Part shown: one piece after another, positions 6,834 to 7,208 of the stretch
Position numbering within the stretch: position 1 is the first letter of the stretch
Layout: every line of letters begins with the position of its first letter
DNA from: Escherichia coli
Lineage (GTDB): Bacteria > Pseudomonadota > Gammaproteobacteria > Enterobacterales > Enterobacteriaceae
DNA length: 10,356 nucleotides
Reading direction: 5' to 3' (one strand)
NCBI RefSeq assembly: GCF_003334385.1
Contig: NZ_QOWN01000069.1
Notes under the pieces: model-generated
What the model was told of the DNA's origin: nothing
Seen by the model: the letters and a program-made list of their open reading frames with translations, nothing else
Database searches by the model: none
Program-made: the position numbers and the translations under genes

Positions 6834-7208
6834 GTGGCTGATTTCGATAACCTGTTCGATGCTGCCATTGCCTGCGCCGATGAAACGATACGCGGGTACA
6901 TGGGAACGTCAGCCACCATGACATCCGGTGAGCAGTCCGGTGCTGTGATACGTGGTGTTTTTGATGACCCTGAAAATATCAGCTATGCCGGACAGGGCGT
7001 GCGCGTTGAAGGCTCCAGCCCGTCCCTGTTTGTCCGGACTGATGATGTGCGGCAGCTGCGGCGCGGCGACACGCTGACCATCGGTGAGGAAAACTTCTGG
7101 ATAGACCGGATTTCGCCGGATGATGGCGGAAGCTGTCATCTCTGGCTTGGGCGGGGCGTACCGCCTGCCGTTAACCGTCGCCGCTGGAAGGGGGATGTAT
7201 GGCCATAA
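6834..7208 (+). CDS. FII: Head-tail joining protein gpFII, GTG start, 124 aa here (7-codon C-terminal extension relative to the 117-aa lambda protein as I recall it)
   Basis: GTG at 6834 is preceded by GGGAGG (6824-6829) and gives (M)ADFDNLFDAAIACADETIRGYMGTSATMTSGEQSGAV... The ORF runs through ...AVNRRR and continues WKGDVWP to TAA at 7206-7208, overlapping the Z start by 10 nt. Confidence 0.88.
   Translation: MADFDNLFDAAIACADETIRGYMGTSATMTSGEQSGAVIRGVFDDPENISYAGQGVRVEGSSPSLFVRTDDVRQLRRGDTLTIGEENFWIDRISPDDGGSCHLWLGRGVPPAVNRRRWKGDVWP

What the first reader, a model, noticed from the sequence alone, without database searches (positions are those of the whole stretch)
7185..7208. gpFII stop codon appears replaced by a Trp codon, giving a 7-residue C-terminal extension that overlaps the Z start
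The ORF encodes ...PPAVNRRR and then continues WKGDVWP before TAA at 7206-7208. From memory, lambda gpFII is 117 aa ending in RRR, and all other genes in the window keep a constant offset to lambda coordinates. That places the expected stop at 7185-7187, where this sequence reads TGG, so the difference would be a single TGA to TGG substitution rather than an indel. FII is the head-side connector that docks the tail, so a C-terminal extension could in principle affect head-tail joining. A sequencing error or a natural lambdoid variant is also possible.
Basis: partly seen in the sequence, partly recalled or inferred. Interest (0 to 1): 0.5.

Follow-up and report, generated by a model that had tools for sequence, protein, structure and literature searches.

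The report
Natural stop-loss allele of lambda FII
The head-tail connector gene FII of this lambda-like prophage really has lost its stop codon through one base change. The protein gains 7 residues, but the allele is common, already catalogued in E. coli prophages and not a sequencing error, and whether it affects the phage is untested.

Summary
Window 7185-7187 reads TGG where lambda, phage Perceval, Lambda_2E9, mEp332 and E. coli C8 read TGA. The change is one A-to-G transition with no indel. FII (6834-7208) therefore encodes 124 aa, ending ...NRRR-WKGDVWP. It stops at TAA 7206-7208, 10 nt inside Z (start 7199).

It is not an error. The same 61-mer occurs in 197 complete E. coli genome records, against 1599 with the TGA version. 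The exact protein is RefSeq WP_000752961.1 and is seen on at least 1000 contigs.

The allele sits on one FII-Z-U haplotype that is otherwise identical to a TGA haplotype. I inspected nine carrier prophages: eight lie at the argU/DLP12 site and one at the Qin site. Five have fully intact structural genes and four carry other lesions.

The allele was absent from 84 sequenced phages and 77 IMG/VR loci. All 80 distant FII homologues (60-70% identity) end at RRR with 117 aa. Cryo-EM places the gpFII C-terminal loop against gpU.

The most likely reading is a tolerated or mildly deleterious natural variant. A disabling lesion in a resident prophage lineage is not excluded. Programmed readthrough and an mRNA-structure effect are rejected. 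Interest is low.

The parts
6834..7208 (+). FII (head-tail joining / head-completion protein), 124-aa stop-loss allele with a GTG start
   Evidence: ORF and translation. It aligns to lambda gpFII (PDB 1K0H, 8K37) over all 117 residues at E 1.6e-74, with only a few substitutions. Pfam PF05354. NCBIfam NF049848 equivalog. Identical to RefSeq WP_000752961.1.
7185..7187 (+). Codon 118: TGG (Trp) where relatives have the TGA stop. The variant base is G at 7187.
7185..7205 (+). The 7-codon C-terminal extension WKGDVWP, read from the Z ribosome-binding site and the first Z codons in the +1 frame relative to Z
   Evidence: AlphaFold2 gives pLDDT below 50 for residues 114-124.
7206..7208 (+). New FII stop codon TAA, lying across Z codons 3-4
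7188..7195 (+). Shine-Dalgarno-like AAGGGGGA of Z, now inside the FII coding sequence
   Evidence: Read directly from the sequence. Conserved in 141 of 168 related loci.
7199..7777 (+). Z (tail completion protein), 192 aa, intact. Its first 10 nt overlap the extended FII.
7774..8169 (+). U (tail terminator), 131 aa, intact. In the virion it is the partner of the gpFII C-terminal loop.
   Evidence: PMC10721106
6427..6822 (+). FI, 131 aa, upstream neighbour (one codon shorter than in lambda)

Best explanation
This is a genuine natural stop-loss allele of the lambda-type head-completion gene FII. One A-to-G transition turned the TGA stop (codon 118) into TGG (Trp). Ribosomes therefore continue for six more codons, through the ribosome-binding site and start codon of the next gene Z, to a TAA 7 nt past the Z ATG. 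The product is gpFII plus WKGDVWP.

The mutation arose on one particular FII-Z-U haplotype of a lambdoid prophage lineage. That lineage sits mainly at the argU/DLP12 site of E. coli. The allele has since been carried into several flanking backgrounds by recombination.

The following part is inferred, not shown. The extra seven residues form a flexible tail. This tail hangs off the C-terminal loop, which touches the gpU O-loop at the outer face of the neck. The protein would then still join heads to tails, perhaps a little less well, so the allele is neutral or mildly deleterious rather than adaptive.
For: Real and natural:
- The identical 61-mer occurs in 197 complete-genome records, against 1599 with the TGA 61-mer.
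- The exact 124-aa protein is on at least 1000 contigs and is RefSeq WP_000752961.1. PGAP annotates it as an ordinary CDS, not a pseudogene.

Single substitution on one haplotype:
- E. coli C8 (TGA) is identical to the window over 6793-7900 except at 7187.
- Perceval differs from the window at one base in 467.
- All nine TGG loci share the block from about 6710 to 7500 with the window, while the flanks are mosaic.

Tolerance:
- All structural genes are intact in the window.
- They are also intact in five of nine inspected TGG prophages: A15, PE164, E105, FDAARGOS_1058 and EC01307.
- The allele is found at two integration sites, DLP12 and Qin, and with at least four different early regions.
- A Salmonella FII with two extra C-terminal residues (RRRRG) is seen on 112 contigs.
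- An independent stop-loss (CAG), also adding 7 aa, occurs in a homologue only 63% identical.
- AlphaFold2 gives pLDDT below 50 for residues 114-124.
[quoted passage not shown] I extend that by inference to the gpU O-loop that the gpFII C-terminal loop contacts (PMC10721106).
Against: - The family keeps RRR as the very last residues. All 80 distant homologues are 117 aa ending R-R/H-R, and all 162 close loci fetched without selecting for the allele stop at codon 118.
- The allele is absent from all 84 sequenced phage records that match and from all 77 IMG/VR loci that match. These samples are small and phylogenetically clustered.
- Four of nine TGG prophages carry other lesions: IS66 in C, an internal stop in K, a frameshift in H.
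- The gpFII C-terminal loop is a resolved contact with gpU in the virion.
- No experiment on this allele was found in the literature.
Confidence: 0.6

Rival explanations
1. Inactivating lesion. The 7-residue tail blocks or weakens docking of the gpU-capped tail. The allele would then mark a grounded, non-infectious resident prophage lineage at the DLP12 site, whose other genes stay intact only through recombination with incoming phages.
For: - Eight of nine inspected TGG prophages sit at the same argU-ompT site, with varying early regions but the same late arm.
- Four of nine have further lesions.
- The allele is absent from 84 phage records and 77 IMG/VR loci.
- The RRR C-terminus is conserved in 80 of 80 distant and 162 of 162 close homologues.
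- The C-terminal loop contacts gpU.
Against: - Five of nine TGG prophages and the window itself have every head and tail gene intact over more than 20 kb.
- The allele also occurs at the Qin site.
- Longer C-termini exist in other FII lineages.
- The extension is predicted to be disordered.
- Absence from the phage collections could reflect sampling, because both are dominated by lambda derivatives and a few clades.
Confidence: 0.28
2. Sequencing or assembly error at position 7187 in this particular record.
For: It is a single-base difference from the closest phage (Perceval) and from the closest whole-window match (E. coli C8). Reads for this assembly cannot be inspected with these tools.
Against: The identical allele, in an identical 467-bp context, is in at least 40 independently assembled complete genomes and 197 records overall. 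It is also on at least 1000 contigs.
Confidence: 0.02
3. Regulatory change. Moving the FII stop from 11 nt upstream of the Z start codon to 7 nt past the Z ATG alters translational coupling or mRNA structure, and hence the FII:Z expression ratio. On this view that change, rather than the protein tail, is the selected effect.
For: The new stop overlaps Z codons 3-4, and the Z Shine-Dalgarno sequence is now translated. Overlapping stop/start arrangements are common in this operon, for example A/W, W/B and Z/U.
Against: - The predicted RNA fold of 7150-7230 is identical for the two alleles (-29.3 kcal/mol each) and no better than shuffled sequence.
- The wild-type 11-nt gap already allows coupling (general knowledge).
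- There is no sign of selection: the allele is a minority on one haplotype.
Confidence: 0.07
4. Hard-wired version of a programmed UGA readthrough. On this view wild-type FII normally makes some +7 product by Trp insertion at a conserved leaky UGA.
For: All 162 close relatives use TGA followed by A. Trp insertion at that UGA would give exactly this 124-aa protein (the leakiness of UGA is general knowledge).
Against: Distant FII homologues use TAA in 70 of 80 cases, TAG in 5 and TGA in 5. In most of them the downstream frame runs straight into Z instead of giving a short tail. Neither a leaky stop nor a +7 peptide is therefore conserved.
Confidence: 0.03

Closest known systems
Bacteriophage lambda gpFII (117 aa; PDB 1K0H, 2KX4, 8K37; Pfam PF05354 Phage_attach; NCBIfam NF049848)
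   Same: It aligns to lambda gpFII over residues 1-117 with only a few substitutions. It has the same GTG start, the same position between FI and Z, and the same operon order from A to T.
   Different: Codon 118 is TGG instead of TGA. Seven extra residues, WKGDVWP, follow the conserved C-terminal RRR. The gene overlaps Z by 10 nt instead of being separated from it by 11 nt.
RefSeq WP_000752961.1, 'MULTISPECIES: head-tail joining protein [Enterobacteriaceae]', in prophages of E. coli O26:H11 11368, O103 RM8385, A15, PE164 and others
   Same: Identical 124-aa sequence, and an identical 467-bp FII/Z segment.
   Different: None in FII. The flanking genes differ mosaically by 1-2%.
WP_000752960.1 (117 aa) in the E. 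coli C8 DLP12-site prophage and in phage Perceval
   Same: The same FII-Z-U haplotype. C8 is identical to the window over 6793-7900 apart from 7187. Perceval differs at one base in 467.
   Different: It carries the TGA stop and gives a 117-aa protein.
P0080, an FII homologue in Logan contig SRR16828820_178979 (63% identical)
   Same: It also lacks the stop at codon 118 and also gains 7 residues. It ends at the equivalent TAA in Z codons 3-4.
   Different: The stop is replaced by CAG (Gln) and the tail is QGGMLCP. It rests on a single contig, so it is unverified.

Membership tests
Lambda gpFII / Pfam PF05354 Phage_attach | Significant match to the Pfam profile | tested here: met
   PF05354, E 3.1e-19, residues 8-105 of the protein
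NCBIfam NF049848 tail_join_FII (equivalog) | Whole-protein score above the curated cut-off | tested here: met
   66.3 bits against a cut-off of 25; residues 17-104
Lambda gpFII | Close sequence identity to the structurally solved protein | tested here: met
   E 1.6e-74 to 1K0H/8K37 over residues 1-117
Lambda gpFII | Gene position between FI and Z in the lambda head-tail operon | tested here: met
   Colinear with lambda 776-11134; all neighbouring genes are present
Lambda gpFII | Canonical 117-aa length with RRR as the C-terminal residues | tested here: not met
   124 aa here. By contrast, 80 of 80 distant and 162 of 162 close homologues stop after codon 117.
Lambda gpFII | Activity: binds the gpW/portal on filled heads and accepts the gpU-capped tail | not testable with these tools
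   Needs in-vitro head-tail joining or phage genetics. Only the contact of residues 108-117 with the gpU O-loop is known, from cryo-EM (PMC10721106).

The most novel reading that the evidence does not exclude
The 7-residue tail on the strictly conserved RRR C-terminus prevents or alters docking of the gpU tail terminator. A widespread E. coli prophage lineage, found in about 200 complete genomes including O26 and O103 STEC, would then be 'grounded' by a single stop-loss point mutation. It would assemble filled heads and tails that cannot join. Alternatively the heads might accept only a modified tail.
Probability: 0.25. Interest if true: 0.35.

Novelty: already known. Interest (0 to 1): 0.15.

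Why it matters
It matters little. For annotation, the 124-aa FII is a legitimate allele and should not be 'corrected' or flagged as an error or pseudogene.

For phage biology it offers a ready-made natural test. The question is whether the invariant free RRR C-terminus of gpFII, which contacts gpU in the virion, is needed for head-tail joining.

If the extension were disabling, it would be a simple genotypic marker for a non-infectious DLP12-site prophage lineage in STEC and other E. coli.

Tried and rejected
- **Sequencing error.** Rejected on prevalence.
- **Indel or frameshift origin.** Rejected. The only indel against lambda is a 3-bp deletion in FI.
- **Programmed UGA readthrough.** Rejected. 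Distant homologues mostly use TAA, and their downstream frame differs.
- **mRNA structure change.** The two alleles give identical minimum-free-energy folds, neither better than shuffled sequence.
- **Structural modelling of the tail.** An AlphaFold2 monomer run from 25 sequences gave mean pLDDT 60.9. Residues 114-124 are below 50, as are the regions known to be flexible. This is weak evidence. The tools return no coordinates, so the FII-gpU interface could not be examined, and I did not attempt a fusion or complex model.
- **Literature.** No paper discussing a 124-aa FII or C-terminal mutants was found. The Cardarelli 2010 PNAS paper was not held under the id I guessed.
- **Source of the window.** There is no 100% match in complete E. 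coli genomes. The best matches are 99.0% (SI-NP020, C8), so the integration site of this particular prophage is unknown.
- **dN/dS within the TGG lineage.** Not attempted. The shared block has at most 3 SNPs, and flank differences come from recombination.

Full report
**Observation.** The window is a lambda-type head and tail morphogenesis region. It aligns colinearly with lambda J02459 positions 776-11134 at 97.9% identity. The single indel is a 3-bp deletion in FI. Genes A (5' end cut by the window edge), W, B, C/Nu3, D, E, FI, Z, U, V, G and T are all open. They end at their lambda stops and have lambda lengths, with FI one codon shorter. FII is the only gene whose stop is missing. The FII ORF runs 6834-7208 from a GTG start and encodes 124 aa ending ...PPAVNRRR-WKGDVWP. 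TGG lies at 7185-7187 and TAA at 7206-7208. Z starts at 7199, so the two genes overlap by 10 nt. In a 101-nt alignment, lambda, Perceval, Lambda_2E9 and mEp332 all read TGA at this codon. The G at 7187 is the window's only difference from three of them. The one correction is that the offset to lambda changes from 775 to 778 at FI.

**Is it an error?** No. The 467-bp FII/Z segment is 100% identical in at least 40 independently assembled complete E. coli genomes. The exact 61-mer centred on the variant occurs in 197 genome records, against 1599 for the same 61-mer with TGA. It is RefSeq WP_000752961.1, which PGAP annotates as an ordinary 'head-tail joining protein'. Its 117-aa twin is WP_000752960.1.

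**Origin and distribution.**
- E. coli C8 carries TGA and is identical to the window over 6793-7900 except at 7187.
- Phage Perceval has the same FII sequence with TGA.
- All nine TGG prophages I inspected share an identical block, about 6710-7500, with the window. The flanks differ in a mosaic pattern.
- This points to one recent A-to-G transition on one haplotype, later moved by recombination.
- Eight of the nine lie between argU/intD and ompT/envY, the DLP12 site. They have at least four different immunity and replication regions.
- The ninth, EC01307, lies at the Qin site.
- Structural genes are fully intact in A15, PE164, E105, FDAARGOS_1058 and EC01307.
- The O26:H11 11368 and O103 RM8385 copies have IS66 in C and an internal stop in K. 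STEC1585 has a frameshifted H. AUSMDU00014361 has an internal stop in K.
- The window itself has no 100% match in complete genomes. The best is 99.0%, to SI-NP020 and C8.

**Family context.**
- FII here passes Pfam PF05354 and the NCBIfam equivalog NF049848.
- It aligns over all 117 residues to the solved lambda protein.
- The family is very uniform at its C-terminus. Among 25 diverse cluster representatives the last three residues, RRR, are nearly invariant.
- All 80 IMG/VR homologues at 60-70% identity are 117 aa ending in R-R/H-R.
- All 162 close loci fetched without selecting for the allele stop at codon 118.
- None of the 84 GenBank phage records matching the 61-mer, and none of the 77 IMG/VR loci matching the junction pattern, has TGG.
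- Exceptions exist. A Salmonella form ends RRRRG and is on 112 contigs. One Logan contig carries an independent stop-loss (CAG) that also adds 7 residues and ends at the equivalent TAA in Z.

**Mechanism.** The coding consequence is read directly from the sequence. Translation continues through the Z Shine-Dalgarno sequence (AAGGGGGA, 7188-7195) and the Z ATG in the +1 frame relative to Z, and stops 7 nt past the Z ATG. [quoted passage not shown] The extension therefore starts at the head-tail interface. An AlphaFold2 monomer model gives pLDDT below 50 for residues 114-124, as it does for the segments known to be flexible, residues 1-22 and 47-60. [quoted passage not shown] By inference from that, the gpU O-loop is also outward-facing. 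I therefore infer that the tail can project into solvent and that joining is preserved or only mildly impaired. This step is inference, not demonstration.

**Rivals.**
- **Disabling lesion.** The main rival is a disabling lesion in a resident, 'grounded' DLP12-site prophage. In its favour are the conserved C-terminus, the absence from isolated phages, the single-site bias and the extra lesions in four of nine copies. Against it are five fully intact structural modules, the Qin-site copy and the longer C-termini seen elsewhere.
- **Regulatory effect on Z.** This finds no support. The predicted RNA folds of the two alleles are identical and unremarkable.
- **Programmed UGA readthrough.** This is contradicted by the distant homologues. 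They use TAA in 70 of 80 cases, and their downstream frame runs into Z.
- **Sequencing error.** This is essentially excluded.

**Novelty and verdict.** The gene family, the exact protein and its genomic contexts are already in public databases. I found no publication that comments on the extension. The finding is a correct observation of an ordinary, catalogued polymorphism. Its only open question is whether gpFII tolerates a blocked C-terminus. Interest is low (0.15).

Noticed in passing
window 6654/6655 (lambda 7430-7432): A 3-bp in-frame deletion in FI relative to lambda gives a 131-aa FI. Perceval and the E. coli prophages have the same 396-nt FI. This shifts the window-to-lambda offset from 775 to 778.
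   Followed up: yes
window 9331-9337: The GGGAAAG slippery heptamer lies at the G/T overlap, in the position of the lambda G-T programmed -1 frameshift site. It is conserved here.
   Followed up: partly
window 6000-7000: Divergence is mosaic. Against lambda there are 35 and 27 mismatches per 500 bp across the 3' end of E and FI, compared with 1-14 elsewhere. Against the TGG prophages there are about 20 mismatches in 6000-6500 but almost none in 6500-8000. This indicates recombination breakpoints flanking the FII block.
   Followed up: partly
L088 3352-3375 (Logan SRR16828820_178979): An independent stop-loss occurs in a 63%-identical FII. CAG replaces the stop, adding 7 aa (QGGMLCP), and translation ends at the equivalent TAA inside Z. 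It rests on a single contig, so it could be an assembly error.
   Followed up: partly
L169-L248 (IMG/VR FII homologues at 60-70% identity): In most distant relatives the FII stop TAA is the first part of the Z Shine-Dalgarno sequence (TAAGGAGG), and FII and Z are in the same frame. A stop-loss there would make an FII-Z fusion instead of a short tail.
   Followed up: no
L006, L084, L249-L253 (E. coli DLP12 site, argU to ompT): Full-length lambdoid prophages of about 40 kb occupy the DLP12 site in many strains. They share a late arm and the cargo genes (bor/iss, an OmpC-like porin). Their immunity and replication regions are very different, which suggests repeated replacement of the early arm by recombination.
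   Followed up: partly
phages collection, MW057783.1 (H165): A record named 'Campylobacter phage CJLB-4' (host C. jejuni, 48,361 bp) carries the lambda FII/Z junction at lambda-like coordinates. It looks like a lambda sequence under a Campylobacter label.
   Followed up: no
P0016: A 169-aa FII homologue, 66% identical, is attributed to Bacillus thuringiensis Sbt003. That is an unlikely host for a lambda-type FII, so contamination or misassignment is possible.
   Followed up: no
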